64,000 nucleotides of DNA from an uncultured Pseudomonadales bacterium. Lineage in GTDB: Bacteria; Patescibacteriota; Microgenomatia; UBA1400; MFAQ01. A program made the translations under genes and the position numbers. Of the stretch, positions 15,187 through 33,169 are shown in pieces. The stretch lies in contig CAYGCQ010000002.1 in NCBI GenBank assembly GCA_964348455.1, forward strand, positions 16,121-80,120, written 5' to 3'. Below the pieces are notes generated by a model, which saw only the letters and a list, made by a program, of their open reading frames with translations, ran no database searches and was not told the origin of the DNA. Each line of letters opens with the position of its first letter. The stretch's first letter is position 1.

Positions 15187-16206
15187 CTACTTTCTAATCC
15201 TTGCCACTAACTTCAAAATAGACCATCGGAATTTATCTGCAATCACATAAACACCATAAAGCGTTTTATTAACTACCAAGTCATAAGTTCCTACAAACTC
15301 CGTCAACTCTCCACCATAGCCCTGTTTAAACCTATGAAAGCCATACCAAGGATCACTCTTGTCTGGCTCAGGCCCCATACTTCCCCACATATCAAACATT
15401 TTGCAGCCATGTTTTTTTCCTAGCTTAATCGCTTCCCACATCATCAGATTATTAGCCATCACCTCTCTATTTTCATTGCTTGAAGCCCCATATGGATAAT
15501 ACAAAACGCCATTTAATTCAAAGAGAACCCATGTTGTTAAAACTTTACCTTCATATAGCGCTTTCATCAAATGTCCTCCCCCGGAAACTATCATGGTCTG
15601 CCACATTTTATGATGATATTTTTTACTGTGAGCAAAAAACTTCTGTCTCTTCGTGGTGTCCTCTGTTAACTTCCAGTACTCGTTAAAAGCCTCTTTAGAA
15701 TTATCTTCTACGATTTGGACACCTCTTTTTTCTGCCAAACGAATATTATATCTCGTCTTCTGATGCATATTTTTCAGTATCTCTTCCTCAGACTTGGAGA
15801 TGTCCAGCTGAAAAGTATATTTAGTAAACAGTGGTTTACCTGACTTCAAGTCAAAGCCACGATTCAATTTTTTCAACTTGTCTTCATTTGTTTTTCCGGC
15901 TTTTTCATTCGGTTCAAGCTTGACCAAAATTGCTCCCTTTTTCTCTGCTTCTTGTTTTATTCCCTCCATTGCCTCACTGTTAGGGATGGCTGACTTTGGA
16001 CAATAGCCTATAAAAAATTTGGTCTTCGGGACCTTATGCCAAGTAATTTGATAAACCTCATCAATAACTTCGTCATTTTCTTCCACCAGGCGCAACACCT
16101 CCACCCCGGTCAGTTTTCGGAACTCTCCCCATTGCCATGACTGTAAGGGGTGTCGGGCGACACGGTCAAATGCTTTTTTGTCTTTTTCTGTAGCTTCTCT
16201 AATCAC
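15187..16206 (-). CDS. FemAB-family (FemX-like) aminoacyl-tRNA-dependent peptidoglycan bridge transferase
   Basis: N-terminal HPLQSWQWGEF (FemX FLQSWEWGE-like), 339 aa. Confidence 0.65.
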   Translation of the reverse strand: MIREATEKDKKAFDRVARHPLQSWQWGEFRKLTGVEVLRLVEENDEVIDEVYQITWHKVPKTKFFIGYCPKSAIPNSEAMEGIKQEAEKKGAILVKLEPNEKAGKTNEDKLKKLNRGFDLKSGKPLFTKYTFQLDISKSEEEILKNMHQKTRYNIRLAEKRGVQIVEDNSKEAFNEYWKLTEDTTKRQKFFAHSKKYHHKMWQTMIVSGGGHLMKALYEGKVLTTWVLFELNGVLYYPYGASSNENREVMANNLMMWEAIKLGKKHGCKMFDMWGSMGPEPDKSDPWYGFHRFKQGYGGELTEFVGTYDLVVNKTLYGVYVIADKFRWSILKLVARIRK

Positions 16207-19363: not shown

Positions 19364-20428
19364 ATGAAACTTCGTCATGTTCGACCTTTTCGTGTTGCCA
19401 TCAAATTTTTCTCCACAATCCGTCAACACCTCTTACTAATTTTATTTGCATTCCTACTTGCCACAATCACTTCGCTTGGGGTTTATGGATTTCGCCTTTT
19501 AAATCAGCACAATGTAACACCTCAAGATCTTTTGAGCTTCTTTGGAAAGCCTTCACAAAATCTAGAGAGCACAAATAATATTACCAACTTTCTCTTGCTC
19601 GGAATAAGAGGTGAGGGCGCCGACTCACCCCTACTTACCGACACCATGATTATTTTTTCCTACAATCACGAATCAAAAATACCAACCACAATCAGTATCC
19701 CCAGGGATTTGTGGGTTCCATCCGGCAAGACAAGAATAAATGCGATGTATCAATATGGTGAAGAGGCTAGTCCTGGGGGTGGTATCGCCAGCATTCAAGG
19801 GGCGGTGTTAGAAGATTTAGGTCTGCCAATTCATTACACTGCCGTAGTAGACTTTGAGGTTTTTAGAGAGGCAATAGACCTAGTTGGGGGCATCGATGTA
19901 GATGTGAGTACTGGTTTTACCGACAATGAATTTCCAATACCAGGCAAAGAGAATGCTCTTCCTATTCCCTCACGTTACGAATCGATTACTTTTAACTCCG
20001 GCATTAACCACCTAGATGGAGAAACCGCTCTAAAATTTGTTCGGTCAAGACATTCTTTCGGCGATGAAGGGACAGACTTTGCCAGATCCAGACGTCAACA
20101 GCAAGTAATTTCTGCCTTAAGGCAGAAGATGGTCACCCCCTCATTCTTACTGGATGAAAAAAAAGTCAATTCATTACTGGATATCATTGGTTCAAACCTA
20201 AAAACAAACTTCCCGGCATACCTCTACCCTACTTTGGCCAAGCTAGCTCTCGACACCAAAGATCAAACCATTCAATCCCTGCCTCTTACGAATCTTCCTG
20301 ACGCCGACGGTGTCTCAATTCTTTACAATCCTCCGGTAAGAAACTACTCGGGTCAATGGGTGCTAATTGCCAAAGACAACAACTGGAACGCCCTAAAACA
20401 ATACTTGAAAAACCACCTCTCCCAATAA
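19364..20428 (+). CDS. LytR-CpsA-Psr (LCP) family cell-envelope polymer transferase
   Basis: N-terminal TM, LLLGIRGEGADSPLLTDTMII...ISIPRDLWV LCP core. Confidence 0.8.
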   Translation: MKLRHVRPFRVAIKFFSTIRQHLLLILFAFLLATITSLGVYGFRLLNQHNVTPQDLLSFFGKPSQNLESTNNITNFLLLGIRGEGADSPLLTDTMIIFSYNHESKIPTTISIPRDLWVPSGKTRINAMYQYGEEASPGGGIASIQGAVLEDLGLPIHYTAVVDFEVFREAIDLVGGIDVDVSTGFTDNEFPIPGKENALPIPSRYESITFNSGINHLDGETALKFVRSRHSFGDEGTDFARSRRQQQVISALRQKMVTPSFLLDEKKVNSLLDIIGSNLKTNFPAYLYPTLAKLALDTKDQTIQSLPLTNLPDADGVSILYNPPVRNYSGQWVLIAKDNNWNALKQYLKNHLSQ

Positions 20429-20532: not shown

Positions 20533-22509
20533 CTACCTCACCTTTATCAAGTACGTCCCACCATCTTCAAAAACTTTTACTCCTAGAGATAATATAATAT
20601 CTTCATTTACCTGATACGTAGTTCTCTCATCCTCTCCCACGATAATCCACCCGACGTTATATTCTTTAAGAAGTTCTATTATTTCTACGCTGTTAAAACC
20701 TTCATATATTCCTTTTACATCAGTCTCTCTAGCTGCCACTGGTTCGTACCCACCTCTCCAAAGCCACTCATGAACTCTCCACCCCTGAATAGTAGGCACC
20801 CCGGAAAAAACAGAAACAGCATTAAAGTTTGAGTAACTATCTCCCACCGCTTCCACCATATTTTTACCGTCATAATTTCCCCTTAGATACTTGATTGCAG
20901 CGTATCTTTCCGGCATGCTTGACTCCAACCACCTTTCTCCACTCAAGCCTGAATAGGTATTAAAATTCGCATAGAAATTTGGGAATGCCACTACCGGAAA
21001 CACCATGGTTCCAATGAATATAAATGCTACCGCAAATACGGCAAATGCTCTGTACCACAGAAAAAGTTTTCTTTCTCCATCAAACAACTTACCAAACAGT
21101 GCTCCCGCCAAAAGACCAATCATGATTGAAGCTTGATATGTAAGTTTGAACATTGTGTTTGCTCTTGGGTGATCGGGATAAATATCTTTGGCGTAGACGA
21201 CTTCAGGAATAATGATTAGTAGTAATATACAAATCGCTAATGTCCAGATTGGCAAAGATTTATCTCCTTTTTTCTCAGTCAATACCGCCAGCACACTTAC
21301 TGTTATTCCACCGGTCCACAATACCGCCAGCTCCCAAAGGGGAGTTCTTTCCGTAACCATCTTTATTCCACTCGAAATAGACTGAAAAGTTACAAACCAA
21401 GGTAAGGCCGTCAGTGCCATAAAGAGAAGCATCACTCCGGCAGATTTTAAAAGTTTGACAAACTCTCTATGATCTCTGAGTATCATAATTATTCCCGAAA
21501 CAGTTAGAAGTAGTCCATAAACAGCCACATCCCATGTATTGGTCATCATCATTACTCCAAATAAAATTCCCAGTATCATTTCATCCCATATTTTTCTCGA
21601 ATGAATCCAGTGCAAGAAAATTAAAACAAAAGCCAACACGACCGGCAAATCAATCAGGTGACCATGTAGGTCCGCAACGACGAAAGAGTACCCTGGGAAC
21701 TCGTGAATGGTGTTATGGATAAATCTGGTGGCGTCTGCGTACCAGTAACCCATCAATCCTTTATGATTTAAAAAATACCAAATTACATGGGTATTTCCTG
21801 CCAACACCGTGGCGAATGCTCCGGTTAGTCCTCCAATCATGCCGGACATGTATTTCTTTGTTCCGCTCAAGAAGTATGAAATTGAAAAAGAAATAGAAAG
21901 TGATAGACCGGCTATAAAGGCTAGCATCATGTTATACCCTACGGCCGGGTCGACGCCAAAGTATCGGATAACAATGCTCGCCCAGTAATGCCCAAAAGAA
22001 TAATAGTTTATCGACTTGCCTGCTTGCCACATATCTGCCGCCGGGAGTGTTGGAGACATCAGATATCGGTTTACAAACCCAAAGTCCATAAATTTTTCCA
22101 ATGAGTCAATGTTTGGTAAAAATCCCCTGATATAAGCGATACCAAAAAGACCAACAAAAAATAAATACTCTTCGATGACGATAATTTTAAGAGTAGTTCT
22201 GGAAACGCTAATACTTTTCAATCCGCTTTTAAAGATAATTCCTAAATTTAAAATAATTACACCAGTCGTAGCCAAAATCAAACCCTGGTTTGTGTTGGCA
22301 GCTACACCCAAATTTGCCAGTTCCCAGATGACTAGTCCCGACATCATTGTAGTCAATAGTCTGGAAAGTGGGTAACCATTATCCGGAAGGTTGTGAAACA
22401 ATTTTTTTGTCAAAGGAAAGCTAATAATCTGTAAAAGAAAACTAATCAGATAGACTCTCATTACCAGCGCAATATCAGAGTTAAACATGGTTTTTAAAGC
22501 TTTTAGCAA
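20533..22509 (-). CDS. large polytopic membrane protein, GT-C / DUF2298 (Chlor_Arch_YYY)-like putative glycosyltransferase with a C-terminal extracytoplasmic domain
   Basis: 658 aa, more than 12 TM helices, then a ~170-aa soluble C-terminal domain. FPGYSFVVADLHGHLIDLP resembles the DUF2298 conserved block. Assignment from memory, not searched. Confidence 0.35.
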   Translation of the reverse strand: MLKALKTMFNSDIALVMRVYLISFLLQIISFPLTKKLFHNLPDNGYPLSRLLTTMMSGLVIWELANLGVAANTNQGLILATTGVIILNLGIIFKSGLKSISVSRTTLKIIVIEEYLFFVGLFGIAYIRGFLPNIDSLEKFMDFGFVNRYLMSPTLPAADMWQAGKSINYYSFGHYWASIVIRYFGVDPAVGYNMMLAFIAGLSLSISFSISYFLSGTKKYMSGMIGGLTGAFATVLAGNTHVIWYFLNHKGLMGYWYADATRFIHNTIHEFPGYSFVVADLHGHLIDLPVVLAFVLIFLHWIHSRKIWDEMILGILFGVMMMTNTWDVAVYGLLLTVSGIIMILRDHREFVKLLKSAGVMLLFMALTALPWFVTFQSISSGIKMVTERTPLWELAVLWTGGITVSVLAVLTEKKGDKSLPIWTLAICILLLIIIPEVVYAKDIYPDHPRANTMFKLTYQASIMIGLLAGALFGKLFDGERKLFLWYRAFAVFAVAFIFIGTMVFPVVAFPNFYANFNTYSGLSGERWLESSMPERYAAIKYLRGNYDGKNMVEAVGDSYSNFNAVSVFSGVPTIQGWRVHEWLWRGGYEPVAARETDVKGIYEGFNSVEIIELLKEYNVGWIIVGEDERTTYQVNEDIILSLGVKVFEDGGTYLIKVR

Positions 22510-23785: not shown

Positions 23786-25198
23786 TTATAGAGCTAAGAG
23801 TATTCCTATGATAGCTAGCATGAGTCCTCCGCCAAATGCGGCTATACCGGGGAAGTCTAAGATTCCAGTCTCAGGAAGTACTTCTCGTTGAGCTACAGCA
23901 TCTGTGGGAGCTACTGTTCCTCCGTCAACGATCTCATCTGTGGGAGCTACTGTTCCTCCGTCAACGATCTCGTCCGTTGGCGCAGCCGTAATCTCGTCCG
24001 TTGGTGCAGCCGTAATCTCATCAGTTGGAGCTGTTGTTGGGCAAACACAGGAACCTGCATCCAAACAGGCTGCTTTTCTACAGGTTTCTGTTCCGGTGTC
24101 ACAAGTTAGACCTGTGGTGCATTCGGAGTCGTCAGTGCATGACTCATTACAAGCAACTACGGACTTGACTGCAAGATCTTTGTCAGCTGTCTTTACGGTA
24201 TCGCCATATGAAAGTTCACTTGTATTTGTAATCACAGTCCCATTCACTGCCGCGTTTGAAACTTTGACCCTAAAAGTAAGCGTCTTTGACGCTCCTACAG
24301 CTAAAGTGATTCCAGAACAGGTAACTTTGTAGTTTGAGTTTGAAAAAGTACAGTCAGTGGTAGTATCTACAAATGTTAACAGATCTTGGTTCTCACCATC
24401 CAATGTATCTGAAACGGTTACATTTGTGGCTGGAGCAGTGCCATCATTTTTAATTACTAAAGCGTATATAAAAGTTTGGTTACGAGAAACTGTTGTGATG
24501 TCGGTTGTGGAACCTTCTTTAAAAGCTTTTTTAGTAATAGACACATCTACCACTTGGCATACAGCAGTTGCAGCACACTGTTTAGTAGTTGCTACTCCGC
24601 ACGAATCCGTACAAGTAGTGATCACCGATGCTGCCTGACCACAAGTAGTAGGACAATCGGGGGAACAAGTTACTTCAGCAGTAGCTACACAAATTGCAGT
24701 TGCAGACACTGAACAGGCCGCGGAAGTTTCGAAACAGATAGTACTGCCATCGGCTTTTTTGCATCTACCGTCGGTTTCGTCGCAGGTAAGTCCAGTAGCA
24801 CACCCGGAGGTTGAAGTACAAACTCCACATTCTGAGGGTTTTGTCGGAGGAGTGGGAGTTGTGGTTGGTGCGGTTGGACATTTAGTCATATCCTTCGTCC
24901 ACGCACCTCCTACGCTAGGGCAACACCAATTTTCATTTCCACAAACCTCTACTCGTCCGGTAGTGGTACAGACGGAATCGCTGGAAGTGCCATCAGACTC
25001 AGGAGGTGTACAGCTTTGTAAGAGGTTCGGTGTCGTTGGGTTCGGACAATGCTCCTCGCAGGTAGCAGCTCTGGAACCTGTTGGGACTATTCCCTGACCT
25101 GTACTAATTCTGTATGAAACAAAGATTGCTGCAGCTGCAATAAGAGCAATAAGAGCTATTGTTATGATTGCGACTATGTTTTTTCTTTTGTTATTCAT
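23786..25198 (-). CDS. Cys-rich, Thr-rich cell-surface protein with a DUF11-like repeat domain and a C-terminal LPETG sorting signal
   Basis: N-terminal TM; many Cys; C-terminal TAAPTDEI repeats; ends VLPETGILDFPGIAAFGGGLMLAIIGILLAL. Confidence 0.7.
   Translation of the reverse strand: MNNKRKNIVAIITIALIALIAAAAIFVSYRISTGQGIVPTGSRAATCEEHCPNPTTPNLLQSCTPPESDGTSSDSVCTTTGRVEVCGNENWCCPSVGGAWTKDMTKCPTAPTTTPTPPTKPSECGVCTSTSGCATGLTCDETDGRCKKADGSTICFETSAACSVSATAICVATAEVTCSPDCPTTCGQAASVITTCTDSCGVATTKQCAATAVCQVVDVSITKKAFKEGSTTDITTVSRNQTFIYALVIKNDGTAPATNVTVSDTLDGENQDLLTFVDTTTDCTFSNSNYKVTCSGITLAVGASKTLTFRVKVSNAAVNGTVITNTSELSYGDTVKTADKDLAVKSVVACNESCTDDSECTTGLTCDTGTETCRKAACLDAGSCVCPTTAPTDEITAAPTDEITAAPTDEIVDGGTVAPTDEIVDGGTVAPTDAVAQREVLPETGILDFPGIAAFGGGLMLAIIGILLAL
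23899..24018. repeat. intragenic tandem repeats: 36-bp unit x2 (perfect) then 24-bp unit x2 (1 mismatch), encoding the TDEITAAP / TDEIVDGGTVAP stalk repeats
   Basis: Direct repeats read from sequence, directly upstream (in gene sense) of the LPETG signal. Confidence 0.8.
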
Positions 25199-25210: not shown

Positions 25211-27190
25211 TTAGTTAGCTGTGGCAACACAAACCCCTAAAGCATCAGGAGTTTTTGAGGATACTTTGCATTCAAACCCAGTCGGGCACTTAATTCCAGC
25301 GACTCCTGCACAAGTTGTTTGAATTGAAGCGGTAGAGGGCGCAGTGCTTACATAAGCCTCGAATTTATATGTTCCAGTTTTTGAAATAGTGTAGTCGTAG
25401 TATGAAGTTAGTTTGGTGGTTGTGTTTAATAGTCCGGAAGCAACAACTTCTACAGTGGAACTTGTTCCCTGAGTAATTCTAAACTTAGCTCTTAAATTCG
25501 CATTGTTTGATCGAACCGCTAATCTAATCTTGTCGTTAATTTTTATTTTGTTTCTTTGGTCCAGGGTCATCGGTGTGGTGTTAAATGTTCCATCAGTTTT
25601 TTGTGAGAACAAGCTAATCTCCATACAAGCACCTGGATTAGCTACGACACACACTTTGGTGCCAGGAACTGTTCTTTTTGTTCCGCAGTTGCTAGTTTGA
25701 TTTACTGTGGCAGTGGTACAAACTGTATTTGCATTAGGTGTCCAACTGGAAACTGTACAGCCTCCCCCTCCACCTTTTGTAGGAGTAGCAGTTACCCCAC
25801 CACCTCCTGTAGAACCGCCGCCACAACCCGAAGTTGACACTACGCATTTGCCACCTGAAATAGCTTCACCTTGGTGACAGCAAAATCTATCTTGGGTTGT
25901 AGCTGTTGCGGTGCTTTTACATGTAAATGCACCAGAGGTATAAGTTGTAGAACAGCAAAGTCCTGGGCTACATACGTCCGTGTACCCTCCGGCGGGTTTG
26001 CATGCTTTAGAGGTAGCACTGTATTCAGGATTTGCTGTAGAACAGCAAAGAGTTGGTGTGCCTACTGAGTTATTGCACGTAGATGCCCCAGCGGTTCCAG
26101 CCGGCAAATTACAATCAACACCCGCTGGACAAGTAGATTTAGACGGATTAGCCACACAAACAGCCCTCGCATTACATCCATCATATGTACCATTTAAACA
26201 ACATGTTAGTTTCATCGTTCCAGGCAAGCTAGAGTTATTAGGAGTACTGCTAAGAGGTGTTGTGCAACTTACTGTTTTTGTATCTTTTCCATATTCACAT
26301 GTTCCGGAAGGAGTTTGAACACATGTTCCTCCGATACACCTATCAGGACTAGTGCACCCAGAATCATTACCACAAATCGTATTGCGACACACTCCACCAA
26401 TAAATTTTTGATCCGCTTCACAACTTTCTGCGGGTGGTGGTGCTGCTGTGGCTGTCCCAGTGAAACACTTTCCACTTAACAAAGGTACTCCAGGGCTACA
26501 ACAGTACTGAGGGGTTGTTGAAGTTGATGAGGAGTAGCACTGTGTGCCTCCGGACTCTGCTCCAAAAGAACATTGTAAATTATTGCCAATAGAGTTACAT
26601 AACTTTTTAGCTGTTGACGGTGTCGGTGTTTTTGCGGGAGTGCCTGTAGCTTGTACACCTCCACAGCCAGATACTTCTGGGTGTCCAATACAACTTGTTT
26701 TTGTAGCATTACAGCTGAAACAGGGGCCGGGGCAGTTTGAAGAAGTACATGTGTATCCTGTTCCGTATCCAGTCGGTGTGGGGGCAATTGGTTTACAAAC
26801 ACCATTAACGCATTTCTCTTTTCCTGCTTTGCACTGAGAGGGGTTGTTTGTACAACCGCCTGCTGCAAACGGCTGAAGTGGTCCGGTCAAGGCTATTCCA
26901 CCTCTGGAAGCCAGCTGATTAGAAACATAATAAGCAGCTCCAGCTACACCCACTACTAGTAGTAAGGCAATCATTCCTAATGCAATTTGTTTAAATTTAT
27001 TTTTCGGTTTCTTCTCTGGCCATTGGATCTCAGGGGTAGTAGGTGATGTTGGTGTTATCGTGGTCGTGGTGGTGGAATCTGGAGTAGTTGTAGTGGTCGT
27101 GGTTAGAGGAGCTCCCAGCGGTTCTTGATTCGGCATCGGAGGATTAAATGGCTGACCGGAAGTTTGATTCGAAAGATTTTGTTCGTCCAT
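25211..27190 (-). CDS. very Cys-rich surface protein (about 60 Cys), N-terminal TM anchor, Thr-rich; paralog of 28244..30208; no C-terminal sorting signal
   Basis: Shares the N-terminal module AGAAYYVSNQL.SR.GIA.TGPLQPFAAGGCTNNP.QCKAGKE.CVNGVCKPIAPTPTGYGTGYTC with the paralog. Confidence 0.65.
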   Translation of the reverse strand: MDEQNLSNQTSGQPFNPPMPNQEPLGAPLTTTTTTTPDSTTTTTITPTSPTTPEIQWPEKKPKNKFKQIALGMIALLLVVGVAGAAYYVSNQLASRGGIALTGPLQPFAAGGCTNNPSQCKAGKEKCVNGVCKPIAPTPTGYGTGYTCTSSNCPGPCFSCNATKTSCIGHPEVSGCGGVQATGTPAKTPTPSTAKKLCNSIGNNLQCSFGAESGGTQCYSSSTSTTPQYCCSPGVPLLSGKCFTGTATAAPPPAESCEADQKFIGGVCRNTICGNDSGCTSPDRCIGGTCVQTPSGTCEYGKDTKTVSCTTPLSSTPNNSSLPGTMKLTCCLNGTYDGCNARAVCVANPSKSTCPAGVDCNLPAGTAGASTCNNSVGTPTLCCSTANPEYSATSKACKPAGGYTDVCSPGLCCSTTYTSGAFTCKSTATATTQDRFCCHQGEAISGGKCVVSTSGCGGGSTGGGGVTATPTKGGGGGCTVSSWTPNANTVCTTATVNQTSNCGTKRTVPGTKVCVVANPGACMEISLFSQKTDGTFNTTPMTLDQRNKIKINDKIRLAVRSNNANLRAKFRITQGTSSTVEVVASGLLNTTTKLTSYYDYTISKTGTYKFEAYVSTAPSTASIQTTCAGVAGIKCPTGFECKVSSKTPDALGVCVATAN

Positions 27191-27468: not shown

Positions 27469-28221
27469 TTAGGGTAGAGGTTCTTCTGTTGTTGGCGTCT
27501 GTGAAGTCGAGTCATCAGTCCAAGTGACGTTTCCGAAGTCATCGATGATTATCGCTCTGCATTGATTTCCATAGCGAGCTGTGTTCGGAATGCCGCTACA
27601 GTCCACAGGCTCGTCAGGGTTAACCGTTGCATCTGGAACTACTTCTAGGGCGGGATCAGCCGTGGGGGCTTCGAATGCTGCAGGTTCACTCTCTGGAGCG
27701 GTTGGAGCTACCGCTTGTTGTCCACTGATGGCTTTTGAGACAGCGAAGACCCCACCGCCGGCGAGGCCAAGTACTAATATTGCTATCAATCCAACTATAA
27801 CGGGCGAAGTCCTTGTCTTTTTAGGTAACATTTCTTGGTTGCTAGTCGTCGCTGATGGGGTCGGAAGATCCATAGCTGTACTCGTAGTAGTAGTTGTGTT
27901 TGTCATCGAGTTGGTAGTTCCTGTCTCTCCCATTGGTGTCATTATCGGGGCAGATACGGAAGGTGGTGCTGAAAAAACGGGATTATCCAAGCCTGTAGTT
28001 TCGGGTTGAAAAGATCTTTCTGCCGATGTCGGCTCTGCTGGGGTAATGTCCTCAGTGCTCGTCGTTGTGGTCGTAGTTGTTAAATTAGGTGAGTCGACAG
28101 GTGGGTAGGATTCAGTCGGAGCTATGTCTAAGTTTGGCTGAGCTTGCGGCGGCTGGCTGGAAACAGGGGGTGTTCCTCCGGCTGAAGCGGTATTGAGGTT
28201 CCTTGTGTCGGTATTATCCAT
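27469..28221 (-). CDS. Pro/Thr/Ser-rich bitopic membrane protein, function unknown
   Basis: Low-complexity N-terminal half, central TM VIVGLIAILVLGLAGGGVFAV, 80-aa C-terminal domain with 2 Cys. Confidence 0.45.
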   Translation of the reverse strand: MDNTDTRNLNTASAGGTPPVSSQPPQAQPNLDIAPTESYPPVDSPNLTTTTTTTSTEDITPAEPTSAERSFQPETTGLDNPVFSAPPSVSAPIMTPMGETGTTNSMTNTTTTTSTAMDLPTPSATTSNQEMLPKKTRTSPVIVGLIAILVLGLAGGGVFAVSKAISGQQAVAPTAPESEPAAFEAPTADPALEVVPDATVNPDEPVDCSGIPNTARYGNQCRAIIIDDFGNVTWTDDSTSQTPTTEEPLP

Positions 28222-28243: not shown

Positions 28244-30208
28244 CTAAAGCGCAAGTAATATCCCCACAATTGTAAGTATAAGTCCTCCTCCAAAGGCGGC
28301 CACTCCGGCGAAGTCAAAAATTCCTGCTTCGGGTAATGCTGTTGGCCTAGGAGCTCTCGTTGCTGGGACTCTGGTTGGAACAGAAGCTGTTCGTTCTGTT
28401 GGTTTCGGGCACACACAGGAGGTTATATTTGAACATTCATTGTTTCTGCACTTATTCGTTTCCGTGTCGCATAACAGCCCATCTCCACATTCAGTATCAG
28501 AAGTGCAGGTGTGGTTACAACTCACTATGGTGCTGACTAATAAATCCTTTTCTGCTTTAAGAATTTTTCCCAAATAAGTTACAGTTGCAATATTTTTAAT
28601 TACTGTACCATTGACTACCGCGTCCGAAACGGTTGATCTAAAAGAAAACTCCTTTGTTTCACCCGGATCAAGTGAGGTGTTGCAGACAACCATTTTCTCC
28701 GGCGACGAGTACTCACAGACCGCCTCTTTATCAAGGAAGGTCAGTTTATCTTGGTTTAATCCTGTTAGGGGGTCGGTGATTTTTACCCCATCTGCCTTAT
28801 CAGCCGCATTGTTTGATACTTGAATCGTATATACGAATGTTTGATTTTTTGAGACAGTATCAATTTCCTGAGTCAAAGAGTAGTTTCCTGATGAGTTATC
28901 CGCTTCATCTTGATATGCCTTTTTGTCTATCGAAACATTTGATTCACAGGACTGTGTATTACATGCCTTTTCGGAATTTCCTCCGTCAACCTCATCACAG
29001 TTGAGAGCTCCACCACAACTTCCTTCAGTACAAGTTCTGGTTTGAGTTCCACCTCCACAAGACTTAGTACAATCACTCCAGTCAGACCAAATAGGTGGAG
29101 TTAATACACAAGTTGTCGCGGCCGTAAAATTTCCTTTACATCTATTGTCTTGTCCAAAAACAAGATTTGCCGCCGGTAGCATCAAGTATCTAGCTACGAT
29201 GGTGTAACTTCCTGCCGCCGGTATATTGTAAATATATTCAAATTTTCCGGTTGTCGAATTTAAAATTGTCGGTCCCCAATTTGCATCGTTAATTTTTATG
29301 TCTACTTGGGTAGTATTTTTCGCTGTCACTGCAAATTTTATACGTGAACCTGGCTTTGCTTCAGCTGATAGTTCAGCAGAAGTAAGATTTTTCCAAGACC
29401 CATCTGTTTGTTGAATGGAATAGTCAATGGCGGTACATGAGACAACTGGCGTTGGTGTTGGTGTGGGAGTTTTTGTCGGCGAAGGGGTAGTTGTAGTCTT
29501 CGTTGGTGTCGGTGTAGATGTCTTAGTTGGCTTAGGTGTTGTAGTACTGCCTCCGGAAGAGACACACCCATTACCGCTTGGATTACATACGTATCCCACT
29601 GCACAGCAAGTCATTGCTTTTCCTGTCATATTGATACACCAAGATCTGCCTTGATTCCCACAAGAAATTCGAGTATCGCTTCTACACTCATAACCGGTAC
29701 AAGCATCACCACCTAGACAGTGACAGTCTGCAGCTGGGCATGTTGACCCACAATGGTTAATTACATTTCCATTTGCATCTCTCGGGGCTCCTTCATCGAT
29801 TGGTAGTGCGATGTTTTGTCCTGCTATCCCAGTGCTTGAAACACCCGCACAGCCGAGGGAAATACAACTTGTTTTAGCGGCATTACACTTGAAACACGGT
29901 GATGGACAGTTCGTGGTTGTGCATGTATACCCTGTTCCATAACCTGTGGGTGTAGGGGCAATAGGTTTGCAAACACCATTCACACATGTTTCTTTTCCTG
30001 CTTTACACTGAGCTGGATTGTTTGTACAACCACCAGCAGCAAAAGGCTGAAGAGGTCCAGTTGGGGCTATTCCTGCTCTGGAAGACAACTGATTAGAAAC
30101 ATAATAAGCCGCACCGGCAATTACCACCATCAAAACAGTCGCAATTATGCCTAATAGCAATCGTCGCCTTCGGACTTTATTTTGTTTCAATGACTCTTCT
30201 CCGCTCAT
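28244..30208 (-). CDS. Cys-rich surface protein with N-terminal TM, PT-rich linker, TSP1-like motif, DUF11-like domain and a C-terminal LPEAG sorting signal
   Basis: WSDWSDCTKSCGGGTQTRTC motif; C-terminus ALPEAGIFDFAGVAAFGGGLILTIVGILLAL. Confidence 0.7.
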   Translation of the reverse strand: MSGEESLKQNKVRRRRLLLGIIATVLMVVIAGAAYYVSNQLSSRAGIAPTGPLQPFAAGGCTNNPAQCKAGKETCVNGVCKPIAPTPTGYGTGYTCTTTNCPSPCFKCNAAKTSCISLGCAGVSSTGIAGQNIALPIDEGAPRDANGNVINHCGSTCPAADCHCLGGDACTGYECRSDTRISCGNQGRSWCINMTGKAMTCCAVGYVCNPSGNGCVSSGGSTTTPKPTKTSTPTPTKTTTTPSPTKTPTPTPTPVVSCTAIDYSIQQTDGSWKNLTSAELSAEAKPGSRIKFAVTAKNTTQVDIKINDANWGPTILNSTTGKFEYIYNIPAAGSYTIVARYLMLPAANLVFGQDNRCKGNFTAATTCVLTPPIWSDWSDCTKSCGGGTQTRTCTEGSCGGALNCDEVDGGNSEKACNTQSCESNVSIDKKAYQDEADNSSGNYSLTQEIDTVSKNQTFVYTIQVSNNAADKADGVKITDPLTGLNQDKLTFLDKEAVCEYSSPEKMVVCNTSLDPGETKEFSFRSTVSDAVVNGTVIKNIATVTYLGKILKAEKDLLVSTIVSCNHTCTSDTECGDGLLCDTETNKCRNNECSNITSCVCPKPTERTASVPTRVPATRAPRPTALPEAGIFDFAGVAAFGGGLILTIVGILLAL

Positions 30209-30285: not shown

Positions 30286-31647
30286 TTATTCCTTGATCCA
30301 TTTTCTACTTAGACTGCCAAATAGTAATAATAAAATTCCAAATAGACTAAGCCCCAGAGTCGTTGCCAATCCTCCGGCATCGGTAAGGTCGCCAGATTCA
30401 GTTGCCGGCATCGAAGTCACAACTGTTGGTTCTGGAGTGACAGCCTCGATTGGAGGAAGTGATTCTGTAGGTATCAATATTGGAGTTGCAGACGGAGTCG
30501 CTGTAAAAGCGGGCTGATCACTTAGAAGTACCGAGAACGTTCTAATAATTTTAATTACTTGATTATTTTCGATAGTGTACTCAATCGTTAACGAGTGATC
30601 ACCTGGTTCTAATTTTTCCGGTGGAGTCCACACCCAGTTTCCGTCATCATCTGCTTGAACTACTTGAACTTGCTCTACGGACTTCAAAGTCAATTTGATA
30701 ACCGTTCCTGTTGGAGCTTTCCCTCTTATCTCCGGCTGATCTGTGGCAATTACCTCTCCGTTTGTAGCCGGATTTAGCACTTTAACCGAACTTGTTGCTT
30801 CCAGTTGCTCAGATATGGCTATTTGAGTTAGTTCTAATTGAAATCCTTCACCTGACGGTGCGACTGTTTCCGGTTCTATTGCTGAGATTTGCTGACCACC
30901 TTCAATAAAGCTTTGATTTTTTCCTAATACGATATCCGGCACCGGCTTGTCTTTGCTGGTATCTGTAAGTGCTGTTGCTGTTCCAACACCTCCTGCTTGA
31001 ACAAAAATTGAAAGTAGAGTTTTAGTTTTATCGTAAGTCAATATTCCGCCGGCCTTGTCTCTTGAGCTAGCTAAATTAAGCCTCCAAGTACCATCCGACT
31101 TTGTAATCGTTGAAAGTGTCTGCCCACCCTCTGCTTCCACAAACACAATACCGCCATTTACAGCATCACCAGTTTCTCGAACTACTTTTCCAAAAATAAT
31201 ATCTTCCGGCGGAGCAATGGCTTGTGCGGTTGTTCTAATCTGAAACGGTTTTCCGTTGTCATCATAGGTGCCAGACCCTGAAATGATTAAGAAGTAATAC
31301 GTTTTGTTTGCCGAAAGACCAGAAACATTTACTGTGTGGCTGTTATAACTTTGAGAAGTTCCTGATATTTGGTCTCTAACATCTCCCGCTGGAATTATTA
31401 TTTTTGCCGGATCTTCAGAGTATTTTATTAATCCTGTTAACGGAGTATCCGTAGTCCAACTGACACTGTAAGTTGTCGATCCCAGATTGGAAATCTTAAT
31501 ATTTTTTGGACTCTCGGAAGGTCCGGCTTTGGACTCAAGCCCGGTTCTCATATTTACTACAATGACACCGGCAATCAATCCACCAATAAGAATTATTACC
31601 CCTAATAGGGTCGGAATTCTTTTTGACATTAATCCTTTTGTTGCCAT
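30286..31647 (-). CDS. multidomain surface protein: N-terminal TM, FN3/purple-acid-phosphatase-N-like, carboxypeptidase-regulatory-like and bacterial Ig-like domains, C-terminal LTDAGG + TM + basic tail
   Basis: Domain-like blocks read from sequence; C-terminus ...GDLTDAGGLATTLGLSLFGILLLLFGSLSRKWIKE. Confidence 0.5.
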   Translation of the reverse strand: MATKGLMSKRIPTLLGVIILIGGLIAGVIVVNMRTGLESKAGPSESPKNIKISNLGSTTYSVSWTTDTPLTGLIKYSEDPAKIIIPAGDVRDQISGTSQSYNSHTVNVSGLSANKTYYFLIISGSGTYDDNGKPFQIRTTAQAIAPPEDIIFGKVVRETGDAVNGGIVFVEAEGGQTLSTITKSDGTWRLNLASSRDKAGGILTYDKTKTLLSIFVQAGGVGTATALTDTSKDKPVPDIVLGKNQSFIEGGQQISAIEPETVAPSGEGFQLELTQIAISEQLEATSSVKVLNPATNGEVIATDQPEIRGKAPTGTVIKLTLKSVEQVQVVQADDDGNWVWTPPEKLEPGDHSLTIEYTIENNQVIKIIRTFSVLLSDQPAFTATPSATPILIPTESLPPIEAVTPEPTVVTSMPATESGDLTDAGGLATTLGLSLFGILLLLFGSLSRKWIKE

Positions 31648-31650
31648 ATT

Positions 31651-31971
31651 TTATTGTAGCGGTGGTATAACCTCTGCTGATGGACTTGCTTCCACTAGAG
31701 AAGGTGTCGGGGTGATGGTAGGGGTTTCTTCCGGCACAATCTTTACAGCGTTGATATCATCATCCGTTATTTTTGTTCTTTTTTCTAGGTTATCAATCGA
31801 TGTTTGGCTAATGACACCATCAATAGGCTTCACTATAATTATTTGATTCTCGGTCAGCTGACTTTTTGTAGCAGCAGAAAAAATTTGAAATGCCAGAATT
31901 CCTCCAACAATCGACAAACTCATAACTCCTATGAGTAAAATATACATGGAAAAGGTGTTTTTTGGCTTCAT
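31651..31971 (-). CDS. small N-terminally anchored membrane protein (possible PilP-like accessory), overlaps the pilO-like stop (ATGA)
   Basis: 106 aa, single TM; translationally coupled to the upstream gene. Confidence 0.35.
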   Translation of the reverse strand: MKPKNTFSMYILLIGVMSLSIVGGILAFQIFSAATKSQLTENQIIIVKPIDGVISQTSIDNLEKRTKITDDDINAVKIVPEETPTITPTPSLVEASPSAEVIPPLQ

Positions 31972-32624
31972 GTCTGTTGGTAGAAATAAAAGTATATTTG
32001 ACCAGAAGCTTTCAGTGTTGAAGTTCCCTGTACCATTCCCGGTTCGGAAGTCAACACTACGCTGCTTAGGTATGACAATCTATCCATATTTTCAATCTCC
32101 ATTAAAAATGACTTTACGTTTGCGGGGTCACCTGAAACTGCAAAAGATACATTTAGTTGGACAATGTTATTTGTGTCTTTAATTGACAATTTTCGTGACC
32201 ATTCACCCGATGCTTTTCCTGTTCCAAATAGCTTTGTCCCCGGCATAGAAACTGTTTGTACTGTCAGACCTTTATTCTGGGCAAGATACTCAATCCTGCC
32301 TGCCATATCATAATATGAGAATTGGCTTGGAACAGCTGCGTCAAAAAGGCTCAGTTTATCCTTAAACTTGTTCAGTTCTGTTTGGGCGTTAAAAACTTGA
32401 GCAATTTTATTGTCGGCTTTTATATTAAAAGAATTTAAATCTTCAATCTTTTTTTGCAAAGAGGCGATATTTGTCAGTGTTGGTCTGATGGCTGCAAAAA
32501 TCAACACTGTCACTGTAAATACAGAAAGAATCACTTCTAAAGAAGCCTTAACTTCAGGCTTCTGATAAATCAAGTTTATTCTTCTGTAAATAAGAGAATA
32601 TTTTTCGTTACTTACAAGAGGCAT
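31968..32624 (-). CDS. pilO: type IV pilus assembly protein PilO-like
   Basis: N-terminal TM + coiled coil + about 100-aa C-terminal domain; start overlaps the pilN-like stop (TAATG). Confidence 0.45.
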   Translation of the reverse strand: MPLVSNEKYSLIYRRINLIYQKPEVKASLEVILSVFTVTVLIFAAIRPTLTNIASLQKKIEDLNSFNIKADNKIAQVFNAQTELNKFKDKLSLFDAAVPSQFSYYDMAGRIEYLAQNKGLTVQTVSMPGTKLFGTGKASGEWSRKLSIKDTNNIVQLNVSFAVSGDPANVKSFLMEIENMDRLSYLSSVVLTSEPGMVQGTSTLKASGQIYFYFYQQT

Positions 32625-33169
32625 TATTTTAAAGTAGTTTGAATATTAAACTTTACGGTACCGGATGTCTGGTCGAAGTTTGTTTCTTTCATGGATAAGC
32701 GAGAGATTCCATCTATCTTCTTCAAGTTTCTCAACAGTTGAGCAAAACCTAGCTCGGTCTCCGACTCTCCAGTGAGAACCATACCGGCACTATCAATAGC
32801 CAATTTATCCAATTTAACTCCTGGTGGCATTAAACCTCCCAGCTCATCATATCTTTGGCCAAAAGATAAATTTTTCGTTAAATAGTTATTGACTGGAGCT
32901 TGTTTGGCCAAATAATATCTGATGGTTGCTTCTGTTTCTGCAAACGCTTGAATCTGAATTTGTTTTTGATCTATTTCATCATTTAGGTCATTAACCTTTT
33001 TGTCAAAATAGAACCTAGAACCGAAAGCTAGCAGAACAACGAACTCAGTCAGAACCACCAGCACTCTGCCTGTAGTAGTTGCCCATGACAAAAATTTACC
33101 CAATGAAGAATAACTAAAGCTATCTTTAGGTAATAAATTTATATGGAAAACTCCTTGCTGGGCAGCCAC
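32624..33169 (-). CDS. pilN: type IV pilus assembly protein PilN-like
   Basis: N-terminal hallmark HINLLPK (the PilN INLLP motif) followed by a TM helix and coiled coil. Confidence 0.6.
   Translation of the reverse strand: MAAQQGVFHINLLPKDSFSYSSLGKFLSWATTTGRVLVVLTEFVVLLAFGSRFYFDKKVNDLNDEIDQKQIQIQAFAETEATIRYYLAKQAPVNNYLTKNLSFGQRYDELGGLMPPGVKLDKLAIDSAGMVLTGESETELGFAQLLRNLKKIDGISRLSMKETNFDQTSGTVKFNIQTTLK

What the first reader, a model, noticed from the sequence alone, without database searches (positions are those of the whole stretch)
28950..29100. Thrombospondin type-1-like repeat (WSDWSDC..SCGGG.Q.R.R.C...C...C) in a bacterial surface protein
Residues ~370-420 of 28244..30208 read PPIWSDWSDCTKSCGGGTQTRTCTEGSCGGALNCDEVDGGNSEKACNTQSC. 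This matches the W-S-x-W-S, C-S-x-T-C-G-x-G-x-Q-x-R-x-R-x-C pattern and six-Cys spacing of the eukaryotic TSP1 adhesive repeat, which is rare in bacteria. In a surface protein with a sorting signal it suggests an adhesin-type (host-matrix or host-cell) binding module.
Basis: partly seen in the sequence, partly recalled or inferred. Interest (0 to 1): 0.65.

Follow-up and report, generated by a model that had tools for sequence, protein, structure and literature searches.

The report
Thrombospondin-type repeat in CPR surface protein
A tiny symbiotic-type bacterium (Patescibacteria/CPR) encodes a cell-surface protein containing a real but divergent copy of the thrombospondin type-1 repeat, better known from animals and malaria parasites. 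Similar repeats turn up in many other uncultured bacteria, so it is an interesting but not unique find.

Summary
The motif is real.

**Homology.** The segment is homologous to thrombospondin type-1 repeats (TSRs):
- Pfam TSP_1 scores 21.3 bits, E 3e-4, just under the 21.6-bit cut-off.
- A profile-profile comparison with eukaryotic and giant-virus TSRs gives 98.9%, E 2.7e-17.
- All PDB sequence hits and the top 50 fold hits are TSRs.
- 10,000 shuffles reach at most 10.3 bits, against 35.8 for the real segment.

**How it departs from the canonical repeat.** It has one Arg instead of two or three (TQTRTC), eight Cys instead of six, a DGGN loop insertion, and a net acidic charge.

**Setting.** It lies in a conserved cassette: TSR, then CLIPPER/DUF11 (an isopeptide stalk domain), then an 8-Cys knot, then LPEAG plus a hydrophobic tail. 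The protein belongs to a chromosomal surface-protein cluster led by pilN/pilO, syntenic in at least four other Patescibacteria contigs.

**Not unique.** Metagenomes hold many bacterial TSR proteins, including type IV pilin fusions and a T9SS protein. NCBI already names a "thrombospondin type-1 domain-containing protein" in Candidatus Roizmanbacteria.

**Function.** An adhesive or spacer role is inferred, not shown. This is a new member of a known kind, of moderate interest.

The parts
28244..30208 (-). Whole gene, 654 aa (stop codon included): a modular cell-surface protein
   Evidence: ORF list. An identical protein, P0001, is in public assemblies.
30098..30160 (-). N-terminal basic stretch followed by a hydrophobic helix (res ~17-37): signal anchor or signal peptide
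   Evidence: Read directly from the sequence: KVRRRR-LLLGIIATVLMVVIAGAAYYV. Not tested with a predictor.
29564..30028 (-). Cys-rich N-terminal 'head' (res ~61-215). It includes the widespread CHCxGGDACT...QGRSWC...MTCC module.
   Evidence: Shared with P0005-P0008, P0011, P0014-P0016 and with the 659-aa paralog. No Pfam family matches.
29447..29563 (-). Pro/Thr-rich linker (res ~216-254)
   Evidence: Read from the sequence.
29120..29446 (-). Ig-like beta-sandwich (res 255-363)
   Evidence: AF2 pLDDT is about 80-87 and the region is all beta. Foldseek matches tandem Ig adhesins and pilins.
28946..29110 (-). Divergent thrombospondin type-1 repeat (res 367-421): WSDWSDC-TKSC-GGGTQTRTC-TEGSC-GGALNC-DEVDGGNSEKAC-NTQSC
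28529..28936 (-). CLIPPER/DUF11 CnaA-like domain (res ~425-560) with a conserved candidate isopeptide triad: K429/K430, D479, N539
   Evidence: Pfam PF01345 scores 36 bits against a gathering score of 24.6. AF2 pLDDT is about 90. Foldseek hits 9ifr with TMt 0.63. The triad residues are invariant in the orthologs. The domain's role is described in PMC12617251.
28409..28519 (-). 8-Cys 'knot' module CNHTCTSDTECGDGLLCDTETNKCRNNECSNITSCVC (res 564-600)
   Evidence: All Cys are invariant. There are 63 instances among the retrieved relatives. AF2 pLDDT is in the 70s.
28247..28336 (-). C-terminal LPEAG motif plus a hydrophobic tail ending ...GILLAL (res 625-654): sortase-like or membrane-anchor signal
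   Evidence: Conserved in orthologs, paralogs and more than 50 relatives. There is no LPXTG HMM hit.
32624..33169 (-). PilN-like gene, first gene of the same-strand cluster
   Evidence: Pfam PilN E 4e-9. Syntenic in L003, L007 and L096.
31968..32624 (-). PilO-like gene
   Evidence: Pfam PilO E 1.7e-5, 25.4 bits against a gathering score of 22.
30286..31647 (-). Upstream neighbour: fn3/Pur_ac_phosph_N, CarboxypepD_reg and Big_13 domains plus a C-terminal TM
   Evidence: Pfam. Syntenic.
23786..25198 (-). 470-aa paralog: a Trp-less Cys-rich module in the TSR slot, then CLIPPER, knot and an LPETG tail
   Evidence: Pfam DUF11 E 2e-10. The module sequence is shown.
25211..27190 (-). 659-aa paralog that shares the first part of the Cys-rich head
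   Evidence: P0009, 73% identity over 18% of the query. Sequence.

Best explanation
Residues 367-421 are a genuine but divergent thrombospondin type-1 repeat (TSR). It sits in a modular cell-surface protein of a Patescibacteria (CPR) bacterium.

The protein is exported through its N-terminal hydrophobic segment. It is held at the envelope by its C-terminal LPEAG-plus-hydrophobic signal, through sortase-type attachment or simply as a membrane anchor. It projects outward in this order: 8-Cys knot, CLIPPER (an isopeptide-stabilised Ig-like domain), TSR, Ig-like domain, Pro/Thr linker, Cys-rich head.

The TSR is a thin, elongated module stapled by probably four disulfides around a reduced Trp/Arg stack (W374, W377, Q389, R391). 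Most likely it acts as a rigid, protease-resistant extension that also offers a binding face toward the partner cell. In the short orthologs it is the outermost folded domain.

It belongs to a prokaryotic TSR pool that recurs on type IV pilins and other bacterial surface proteins. It is not a recent import from a eukaryote.

Shown: homology, conservation, architecture and synteny. Inferred: export, anchoring, disulfide map, isopeptide bond and any binding.
For: **Homology.**
- Pfam TSP1-clan families are the only hits to the isolated segment: TSP1_spondin E 1.5e-4, TSP_1 E 3.1e-4, TSP1_ADAMTS E 1.1e-3.
- An own HMM built from 31 TSRs gives E 3e-8 and hits this ORF alone in the window.
- The shuffle controls are far below the real score.
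- hhalign of the 7-member family against the TSR profile gives 98.9%, E 2.7e-17. Controls against the knot module give 0.1-1%.
- phmmer against PDB returns 31 hits, all TSR proteins, the best being TSP-1 7yyk at E 5.4e-7.
- The AF2 model has pLDDT 81, and its top 50 Foldseek PDB hits are all TSRs.

**Selection.** The TSR is the most conserved folded part of the cassette, at 54-80% identity against 41-74% for CLIPPER.

**Surface-stalk context.**
- CLIPPER scores above the Pfam threshold, and it is described as a stalk domain of fibrillar adhesins (PMC12617251).
- The model matches RbmA, SdrD, BspA, the BcpA pilin and CLIPPER 9ifr.

**Native, vertically inherited locus.**
- The order pilN, pilO, small TM protein, fn3/Big_13 protein, head, TSR-CLIPPER recurs in L003, L007 and L096, with orthologs down to 46% identity.
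- GC content is flat.
- The flanking genes are housekeeping genes.

**Prokaryotic TSR pool.**
- Pilin-TSR fusions occur in L080, L014, P0101 and P0117. TSR followed by DUF11 occurs in L011. A T9SS protein (L037) and others also carry TSRs.
- The short B-strand is found in 25 of 51 TSR units from proteins with prokaryotic hallmarks. It is found in 0 of 53 units from six eukaryotic or giant-virus proteins.
- The [LIV]DGG[NK] loop is shared with P0119, P0122 and P0134.

**Adhesion by analogy.** Modules grafted onto type IV pilins are generally ligand-binding modules (PMC8179133).
Against: - Pfam TSP_1 is 0.3 bits under its gathering score, and it is not reported at all for the full-length protein.
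- With a bacteria-only alignment AF2 does not fold the region (pLDDT 26-41). The TSR-like model therefore depends on eukaryotic sequences in the alignment.
- There is only one Arg, and the net charge is acidic. The classical heparin/sulfatide-binding groove is probably absent.
- No LPXTG HMM hit, no basic tail and no sortase gene in 64 kb.
- In the 654-aa protein the TSR is in the membrane-proximal half, which suits a spacer better than a tip adhesin.
- Among the roughly 55 representatives listed that carry the knot and/or the C-terminal anchor motif, none has the TSR in the cassette; the three TSR-bearing representatives (P0004, P0002, P0024) are listed. The slot therefore tolerates other small Cys-rich modules.
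- There are no expression, localisation or binding data.
Confidence: 0.65

Rival explanations
1. It is a true TSR, but it acts purely as a structural spacer. It would be one of several interchangeable small disulfide-rich modules that set the length and rigidity of the stalk next to CLIPPER, with no ligand of its own.
For: - In the fused 654-aa form the TSR lies between an Ig-like domain and CLIPPER, in the anchor-proximal half.
- The same slot holds a Trp-less 8-Cys module in at least 26 relatives, or 'WTP...QTSNCG' modules in others.
- The module is acidic and poor in Arg.
- It is strongly conserved rather than diversifying.
Against: - In the short orthologs P0003, P0004, P0021 and P0022 the TSR is the outermost folded domain.
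- TSRs are grafted as C-terminal modules onto type IV pilins. Grafted modules in that position usually bind ligands (PMC8179133).
Confidence: 0.27
2. It is a eukaryote-mimicking module recently acquired from a eukaryotic host or a giant virus. It would be used to bind eukaryotic matrix or cell-surface receptors, as in TRAP and CSP.
For: - The best non-bacterial sequence hits are a giant-virus 12xTSR protein (P0010, E 1e-28; the contig carries Pox_A32 and VLTF3) and eukaryotic multi-TSR proteins.
- The eukaryotic O-fucosylation-type consensus C-x-x-S-C-G and the W-x-x-W motif are retained. This is read from the sequence; the consensus itself is from general knowledge.
Against: - There is no GC anomaly.
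- The gene lies in a core chromosomal locus that is syntenic across orthologs down to 46% identity.
- Lineage features (short B-strand, extra Cys pair, DGGN loop) are shared with other bacterial TSRs and not with the eukaryotic or giant-virus ones examined.
- Cultivated Patescibacteria are episymbionts of other microbes (PMC12206443 abstract).
Confidence: 0.06
3. It is not a TSR at all, but a chance or convergent Cys/Gly/Thr-rich motif in a Cys-rich protein.
For: - It scores below the Pfam gathering score.
- The protein and its paralogs are full of other small Cys-rich motifs.
- The bacteria-only AF2 run gave no confident fold.
Against: - The shuffle controls, including Cys-fixed shuffles, reach at most 10.3 bits against 35.8.
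- hhalign gives E 2.7e-17, while other Cys-rich modules of the same proteins score 0.1-7%.
- Every PDB sequence hit is a TSR.
- Bacterial TSRs scoring clearly above the Pfam threshold (L011 at 62 bits, L025 at 36.5 bits) bridge the gap to this family.
Confidence: 0.02

Closest known systems
Thrombospondin type-1 repeat (Pfam TSP_1 PF00090 and its clan: TSP1_spondin, TSP1_ADAMTS), as in TSP-1, properdin, F-spondin, ADAMTS13, TRAP and CSP
   Same: - WSxWSxC-xxSCGGGxQxR core.
- Six cysteines at the canonical positions.
- ...ACNTQxC end.
- About 55 residues long and extracellular.
- Predicted elongated fold with few strands, matching solved TSRs at TMq 0.5-0.6.
   Different: - One Arg instead of two or three, with a B-strand two residues shorter.
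- Two extra Cys: an N-terminal Cys as in the 'group 2' pattern, plus one in the B-C loop.
- A DGGN insertion before the fifth canonical Cys.
- Acidic charge.
- A single copy.
- Bacterial (CPR) host protein.
- It scores just under the Pfam cut-off.
Bacterial TSP1-domain proteins already in the databases, e.g. 'thrombospondin type-1 domain-containing protein [Candidatus Roizmanbacteria bacterium]' (P0109), and the metagenomic pilin-TSR fusions (L080, L014, P0101, P0117)
   Same: - Prokaryotic and extracellular.
- Many share the short TQTRTC strand, and some share the LDGGN loop.
- They are associated with type IV pilus components: fused to pilins there, next to pilN/pilO here.
   Different: - Those proteins score above the Pfam threshold and usually carry 2-6 tandem repeats.
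- Here a single sub-threshold repeat is embedded in a TSR-CLIPPER-knot-anchor cassette.
- The Roizmanbacteria repeats are of the type that lacks the third Cys.
Fibrillar adhesins and Gram-positive MSCRAMM- or pilin-type stalk proteins with CLIPPER/DUF11 or CnaA/CnaB isopeptide domains (PMC12617251)
   Same: - An N-terminal export signal, a distal non-repetitive head, a stalk with an isopeptide-type Ig-like domain, and a C-terminal LPxxG-type signal.
- Fold matches to SdrD, BspA, BcpA and CLIPPER 9ifr.
   Different: - Only one CLIPPER domain rather than a long tandem stalk.
- Disulfide-rich mini-modules (TSR, knot) flank it.
- The C-terminal signal lacks the basic tail and does not hit the LPXTG HMM.
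- The organism is a CPR bacterium.
Modular type IV pilins (S. sanguinis PilB and PilC; PMC8179133)
   Same: The concept is the same: a ligand-binding module displayed by a type IV pilus-linked protein. Bacterial TSRs do occur as such grafted modules.
   Different: The target protein itself has no pilin N-terminal methylation motif. Its link to the pilus genes is only gene neighbourhood.

Membership tests
TSP1 repeat (Pfam PF00090 / TSP1 clan) | Pfam TSP_1 HMM score at or above the gathering threshold (21.6 bits) | tested here: not met
   The isolated segment scores 21.3 bits, E 3.1e-4. The family is not listed for the full-length protein. The orthologs score 21.5, 18.6 and 21.1 bits. All are marginally below the threshold.
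TSP1 repeat (Pfam PF00090 / TSP1 clan) | Significant profile-level similarity to bona fide TSRs | tested here: met
   hhalign gives 98.9%, E 2.7e-17. An own HMM gives E 3e-8 within the window. phmmer against PDB gives 31 hits, all TSR proteins, the best at E 5.4e-7.
TSP1 repeat (Pfam PF00090 / TSP1 clan) | W-x-x-W Trp ladder on strand A | tested here: met
   W374 and W377 (WSDWS). Invariant in the four closest orthologs, and a W-x-x-W is kept in all seven family members.
TSP1 repeat (Pfam PF00090 / TSP1 clan) | R-x-R(-x-R) Arg ladder on strand B that interleaves with the Trp residues | tested here: inconclusive
   There is only one Arg (R391), preceded by Q389: GGGTQTRTC. The strand is two residues shorter than canonical.
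TSP1 repeat (Pfam PF00090 / TSP1 clan) | Six conserved Cys at canonical spacing | tested here: met
   C380, C384, C393, C404, C416 and C421 align with the canonical positions. C367 and C398 are extra.
TSP1 repeat (Pfam PF00090 / TSP1 clan) | Elongated three-stranded TSR fold | tested here: inconclusive
   With eukaryotic TSRs in the alignment the model has pLDDT 81.3, and its top 50 Foldseek PDB hits are all TSRs. With a bacteria-only alignment pLDDT is 26-41.
TSP1 repeat (Pfam PF00090 / TSP1 clan) | Disulfide connectivity (C1-C5, C2-C6, C3-C4 or the group-2 variant) | not testable with these tools
This needs mass spectrometry or a solved structure.
CLIPPER / DUF11 (PF01345) isopeptide domain | Pfam hit above the gathering score, and a CnaA-like fold | tested here: met
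   36 bits against 24.6. AF2 pLDDT is about 90. Foldseek hits 9ifr with TMt 0.63.
CLIPPER / DUF11 (PF01345) isopeptide domain | Lys-Asn isopeptide pair with a catalytic Asp/Glu | tested here: inconclusive
   The candidates K429/K430, D479 and N539 are invariant in the orthologs. Their geometry was not checked, and some DUF11 domains lack the bond (PMC12617251).
LPXTG sortase-anchored proteins | LPXTG motif, hydrophobic segment, basic tail, HMM TIGR01167, and a sortase gene present | tested here: inconclusive
   LPEAG plus a hydrophobic tail is conserved. There is no basic tail, no NCBIfam LPXTG hit at E<=1 and no sortase gene in the 64-kb window.
Type IV pilus-associated surface proteins | Pilin N-terminal methylation motif, or genetic linkage to pilus assembly genes | tested here: inconclusive
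   The target has no N_methyl motif. It lies in a same-strand cluster headed by pilN and pilO, and the cluster is syntenic in L003, L007 and L096. Co-transcription has not been shown.

The most novel reading that the evidence does not exclude
TSRs are not eukaryotic borrowings here. They would be a native and widely used adhesion module of ultra-small episymbiotic bacteria and other uncultured bacteria. They are displayed on type IV pilins and on CLIPPER-type stalks. They have their own subtype: a short one-Arg B-strand, an extra disulfide and a DGGN loop.

Two further points would follow. The Trp-less 8-Cys module found in dozens of Microgenomates proteins would be a cryptic TSR derivative. 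The prokaryotic pool could be the evolutionary source of the eukaryotic repeat, or at least a very old partner in exchange with it.
Probability: 0.2. Interest if true: 0.7.

Novelty: new member of a known kind. Interest (0 to 1): 0.4.

Why it matters
TSRs are textbook eukaryotic adhesion modules, known from thrombospondin, properdin, ADAMTS, and TRAP and CSP of malaria parasites. In the paper library searched here I found nothing on prokaryotic TSRs.

This case shows three things:
- A whole family of CPR surface proteins escapes TSP_1 annotation by a fraction of a bit.
- TSRs recur in bacterial surface proteins, including type IV pilins.
- They can sit next to isopeptide stalk domains.

For CPR biology this marks a conserved, pilN/pilO-linked cluster of surface proteins as candidates for host attachment. 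For domain evolution it gives material to test which way TSRs moved between domains of life.

Tried and rejected
- **Rfam.** A scan of the window found nothing.
- **Pfam on the full-length protein.** No TSP hit appeared. Only the excised segment and the orthologs show it.
- **AF2 with a bacteria-only alignment.** The TSR region was not folded.
- **Cluster-member look-up.** It returned no organism names.
- **Sorting signal.** The NCBIfam search for an LPXTG or other sorting-signal model found nothing. No sortase gene turned up among the 150-aa-plus ORFs of the window that were scanned.
- **Literature.** Searches for prokaryotic TSP1/TSR, and for TSP1 together with Patescibacteria, found nothing relevant.
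- **Trp-less module as a degenerate TSR.** I tested whether the Trp-less Cys-rich module of the 470-aa paralog is a degenerate TSR. The position and the Cys framework agree, but hhalign gives only 5-7% probability, P 0.005-0.007. It is left as an unproven lead.
- **Recent horizontal transfer.** Rejected on flat GC and deep synteny.
- **Eukaryotic contamination or misassembly.** Rejected because the same gene sits among bacterial housekeeping genes in several independent assemblies.
- **Promoter and terminator scan.** Uninformative, with counts at or below chance.
- **Charge comparison.** I do not rely on them.
Full report
**1. What is at the coordinates**

The finding lies in a 654-aa ORF on the minus strand, 28244..30208. 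The plus-strand reading of the same span is full of stops. With the preceding Cys the module spans residues 367-421, nt 28946-29110: C-VLTPPI-WSDWSD-C-TKS-C-GGGTQTRT-C-TEGS-C-GGALN-C-DEVDGGNSEKA-C-NTQS-C.

There is one Arg, not two, because the B-strand is two residues shorter than Q-x-R-x-R-x-C. There are eight cysteines, not six. In an alignment with eukaryotic and giant-virus repeats, six Cys fall on the canonical positions. The two extra are C367, N-terminal as in the TSR type that lacks the third Cys, and C398 in the following loop.

**2. Is it more than chance**

- Pfam, given the excised 62-aa segment, returns only families of the TSP1 clan. These are TSP1_spondin at E 1.5e-4, TSP_1 at E 3.1e-4 (21.3 bits against a gathering score of 21.6) and TSP1_ADAMTS at E 1.1e-3.
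- On the full-length protein Pfam lists only DUF11.
- The orthologs score 21.5, 18.6 and 21.1 bits. The whole family therefore sits a fraction of a bit under the curated threshold, which explains why its precomputed annotation shows only PF01345.
- An HMM I built from 31 repeats of three eukaryotic or giant-virus proteins hits this ORF alone among the 666 six-frame ORFs of the window, at E 3e-8.
- The segment scores 35.8 bits. The maximum was 9.6 bits in 5000 shuffles and 10.3 bits in 5000 shuffles that kept every Cys in place. Neither composition nor Cys spacing explains the match.
- A profile-profile comparison of the seven-member bacterial family with the TSR profile gives 98.9% probability, E 2.7e-17. 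The other Cys-rich modules of these same proteins give 0.1-7%.
- phmmer against PDB sequences finds 31 chains, every one a TSR protein: TSP-1, CSP, F-spondin, BAI1, ADAMTS13, MIC2, TRAP and CCN3. The best E-value is 5.4e-7.

**3. Fold**

An AF2 model was made from the segment aligned with three orthologs and seven eukaryotic or giant-virus TSRs. It has mean pLDDT 81.3. Its top 50 Foldseek matches in the PDB are all TSRs, with probability 1.0 for most and TMq 0.4-0.6. In the viral library it matches prasinovirus and mimivirid TSR proteins.

This test is not independent of the eukaryotic sequences. A second AF2 run on residues 255-612 used a bacteria-only alignment:
- Ig-like domain 255-363: pLDDT about 80-87.
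- CLIPPER domain: pLDDT about 90.
- Residues 363-422: pLDDT only 26-41.

The fold criterion is therefore inconclusive. Homology rests mainly on sequence.

**4. The protein and its family**

The architecture comes:

| Segment | Residues |
|---|---|
| Basic N-terminus plus hydrophobic helix | ~17-37 |
| Cys-rich head | 61-215 |
| Pro/Thr linker | 216-254 |
| Ig-like sandwich | 255-363 |
| TSR | 367-421 |
| CLIPPER/DUF11 | 425-560 |
| 8-Cys knot | 564-600 |
| Linker | 601-624 |
| LPEAG plus hydrophobic tail ending GILLAL | 625-654 |

CLIPPER scores 36 bits against a gathering score of 24.6. The multi-domain model matches tandem-Ig adhesins and pilins (RbmA, SdrD, BspA, BcpA, PrgB) and the solved CLIPPER domain 9ifr with TMt 0.63. 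DUF11 was recently renamed CLIPPER. It was shown to be a CnaA-like domain, often carrying an isopeptide bond, that forms stalks of fibrillar adhesins (PMC12617251). The candidate triad K429/K430, D479 and N539 is invariant in the orthologs, but I could not check its geometry.

The C-terminal signal resembles LPXTG. It lacks a basic tail, hits no NCBIfam sorting model, and no sortase gene lies in the window.

**5. Relatives**

Seven proteins carry the cassette TSR, CLIPPER, knot, anchor: P0001-P0004, P0021, P0022 and P0024, at 46-72% identity. In them both Trp, the Arg, the eight Cys and the DGG[NK] loop are kept. The TSR is the best conserved folded part, at 54-80% identity to the target against 41-74% for CLIPPER.

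In L007 the gene is split. P0007 carries the head and the Ig-like domain, and P0004 carries the cassette with its own N-terminal helix. In the short forms the TSR is therefore the outermost folded domain.

An exhaustive search of 1.84 billion representatives with the cassette profile gives 75 proteins at E<=1e-30. Among the roughly 55 representatives listed that carry the knot and/or the C-terminal anchor motif, none has a TSR in the cassette; the three TSR-bearing representatives (P0004, P0002, P0024) are in the list. Others have one of two modules in the same slot:
- a Trp-less module, CV....TC.PDCPT.CG..ASTI.TCT.SCG.ATTK.C.AT..C, with 26 instances including the window's 470-aa paralog;
- one to three 'WTP...QTSNCG..R...GTK.C' modules.

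The Trp-less module shares the position and much of the Cys framework with the TSR. Its profile similarity is not significant, at 5-7% probability and P about 0.005-0.007.

**6. Organism and locus**

The closest genome record is a 'Patescibacteria group bacterium' MAG. Named relatives of the cassette family are Woesebacteria, Roizmanbacteria and a 'Microgenomates group bacterium'.

The window is core chromosome. It carries NusA, IF-2, S15, PNPase, DnaK, DnaJ, LepA, MurJ, FtsK, RNase J, ThyX, TIM and UvrD, plus the envelope genes FemAB, LytR-CpsA-Psr and DUF2298. HrcA and GrpE were identified only in the syntenic locus L003; the matching window ORFs were not scanned. GC is flat at 0.38-0.46.

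The gene lies in a same-strand cluster on the minus strand, in this order:
- S20
- pilN
- pilO
- a 106-aa TM protein
- the fn3/Big_13 protein
- the target
- a 250-aa protein
- the 659-aa paralog
- the 470-aa paralog
- amine oxidase
- DUF2298

This order recurs in L003, L007 and L096, the last with an ortholog only 46% identical. The module is therefore vertically inherited in this clade and is not a recent import or a contaminant. Co-transcription is plausible, since the gaps are 22-78 bp and no terminator-like site lies in them, but it has not been shown.

**7. How rare is a bacterial TSR**

A scan of JGI metagenome contigs with the four-sequence profile confirmed 161 relatives. Many sit on unmistakably bacterial DNA and score above the Pfam threshold:
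- L080 is a protein with a type IV pilin N-terminal methylation motif followed by three or four TSRs. From their N-terminal sequences, read by eye and not tested, its neighbours look like YebC, RuvA, RuvB, QueA and trigger factor.
- L014 is another pilin-TSR fusion.
- L011 has two TSRs, DUF4215 and DUF11.
- L055 has six or more TSRs, on a 196-kb contig.
- L037 has He_PIG, a TSR and a T9SS sorting domain.
- L053 is a lipoprotein with one TSR.

The second protein search added further cases:
- the pilin-TSR proteins P0101 and P0117;
- cohesin/dockerin-TSR proteins, including P0119, which sits on a bacterial contig beside an N_methyl gene;
- a vWA/DUF4215-TSR protein;
- an esterase-TSR protein;
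- P0109, which NCBI already names 'thrombospondin type-1 domain-containing protein [Candidatus Roizmanbacteria bacterium]'.

The short TQTRTC strand occurs in 25 of 51 TSR units from proteins with prokaryotic hallmarks. It occurs in none of 53 units from six eukaryotic or giant-virus proteins retrieved by the same queries. The [LIV]DGG[NK] loop is shared with P0119, P0122 and P0134.

There are two caveats. All of these proteins were retrieved by similarity to a short-strand query. One apparently alveolate TRAP-like transcript (L008) also has the short strand.

The best non-bacterial hit, P0010, is a giant-virus protein.

No paper in the searched library deals with prokaryotic TSRs. The modular-pilin survey does not mention them in its main text.

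**8. Mechanism**

Shown: homology to TSRs, strong purifying conservation, an extracellular stalk-type architecture, and stable linkage to pilN/pilO.

Inferred: the protein is exported and held at the envelope by its C-terminus. The knot, CLIPPER, TSR and Ig-like domains form a disulfide- and isopeptide-stabilised stalk that carries the Cys-rich head outward. The TSR contributes a thin rigid segment with a reduced Trp/Arg stack.

Whether the TSR also binds a ligand is open:
- In favour: it is the distal domain in the short orthologs, and bacterial TSRs are grafted onto pilins, where modules typically bind ligands (PMC8179133).
- Against: it is acidic (pI 4.1-4.9 in six of seven), it has a single Arg, it is proximal in the fused form, and other mini-modules can occupy its slot.

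Classical polyanion binding through a basic groove is unlikely. That mechanism is general knowledge of TSP-1 and TRAP-family TSRs. If there is a partner, it is more likely on another microbe, because cultivated Patescibacteria are episymbionts (PMC12206443).

**9. Verdict**

It is a real TSR in a surface protein, but it is a sub-threshold, one-Arg, eight-Cys bacterial variant. Bacterial TSRs are not as rare as assumed and are already annotated in CPR genomes, and the adhesive function is an analogy.

I rate it a new member of a known kind, with moderate interest. The more novel reading remains possible but untested: a native prokaryotic TSR pool used on pili and stalks, possibly with cryptic derivatives.

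Noticed in passing
window 27469-28221 (-), 28244-30208 (-), 23786-25198 (-); also P0003, P0004, P0005, P0007, P0012, P0017, P0020, P0024: Many otherwise unrelated surface proteins of this cluster and their relatives share an N-terminal signature. A hydrophobic helix is followed by Q(A/G)(V/I)AP(T/N)AP.S(E/K)PQA. The 250-aa ORF, for example, has AISGQQAVAPTAPESEPAAF. This may be a lineage-specific processing or sorting motif. No HMM matched it.
   Followed up: no
window 23786-25198 (-), residues ~170-215; P0023 and about 25 other relatives: A Trp-less 8-9 Cys module, CV....TC.PDCPT.CG..ASTI.TCT.SCG.ATTK.C.AT..C, occupies exactly the slot directly N-terminal of CLIPPER that the TSR occupies in the target. 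Its Cys framework partly parallels the TSR. Profile comparison is not significant (5-7% probability).
   Followed up: partly
window 25211-27190 (-); P0008, P0154-P0159, P0170, P0180, P0182: A third small module, C..(T/S)TW(T/S)P.....C.......QTSNCG..R...GTK.C, occurs in one to three copies. In many relatives it also lies directly before CLIPPER. The slot therefore takes interchangeable disulfide-rich mini-modules.
   Followed up: partly
L007 8684-11095, compared with window 28244-30208: A gene fusion or split. In a related genome the head plus Ig-like half (P0007, 436 aa) and the TSR-CLIPPER-knot-anchor half (P0004, 364 aa) are two adjacent genes, each with its own N-terminal helix. In the window and in L003 they form one gene.
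   Followed up: partly
L080 4504-7128, L014 260-1747; P0101, P0117: Bacterial proteins that combine a type IV pilin N-terminal methylation motif with two to four C-terminal TSRs, that is, 'modular pilins' with TSR modules. L080 lies beside a second pilin gene and genes that look like ruvA, ruvB, queA and tig. P0119, a cohesin/dockerin-TSR protein, lies next to an N_methyl gene (L095).
   Followed up: partly
L005 10001-15483: A giant-virus contig (Pox_A32, VLTF3, DUF5764) carries two tandem genes for membrane-anchored multi-TSR proteins. One of them (P0010) has about 12 TSRs plus chitin-binding domains.
   Followed up: no
window 28409-28519 (-) and 63 instances in relatives: A conserved 8-Cys 'knot' module, CN.TCT.D.EC..GL.CDT....CR...C.....C.C, lies between CLIPPER and the C-terminal signal and is sometimes duplicated (P0005, P0142). 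No Pfam family matches it, apart from a weak Myxo_Cys_RPT hint in the paralog.
   Followed up: no
window 28247-28336 (-), 23789-23880 (-): The C-terminal signal LP(E/D/K)(A/T/S)G-I(F/M/L)D.(A/P/T)G(V/I)AAFGGGL.L..(I/V)GILLAL is almost invariant across more than 50 proteins. It has no basic tail and no LPXTG HMM hit, and there is no sortase gene in the 64-kb window.
   Followed up: partly
window 14365-16206 (-), 19364-20428 (+), 20533-22509 (-): Envelope-related genes flank the cluster: two FemAB-family genes, a LytR-CpsA-Psr gene and a DUF2298 membrane protein. Amine oxidase followed by DUF2298 is part of the conserved synteny.
   Followed up: no
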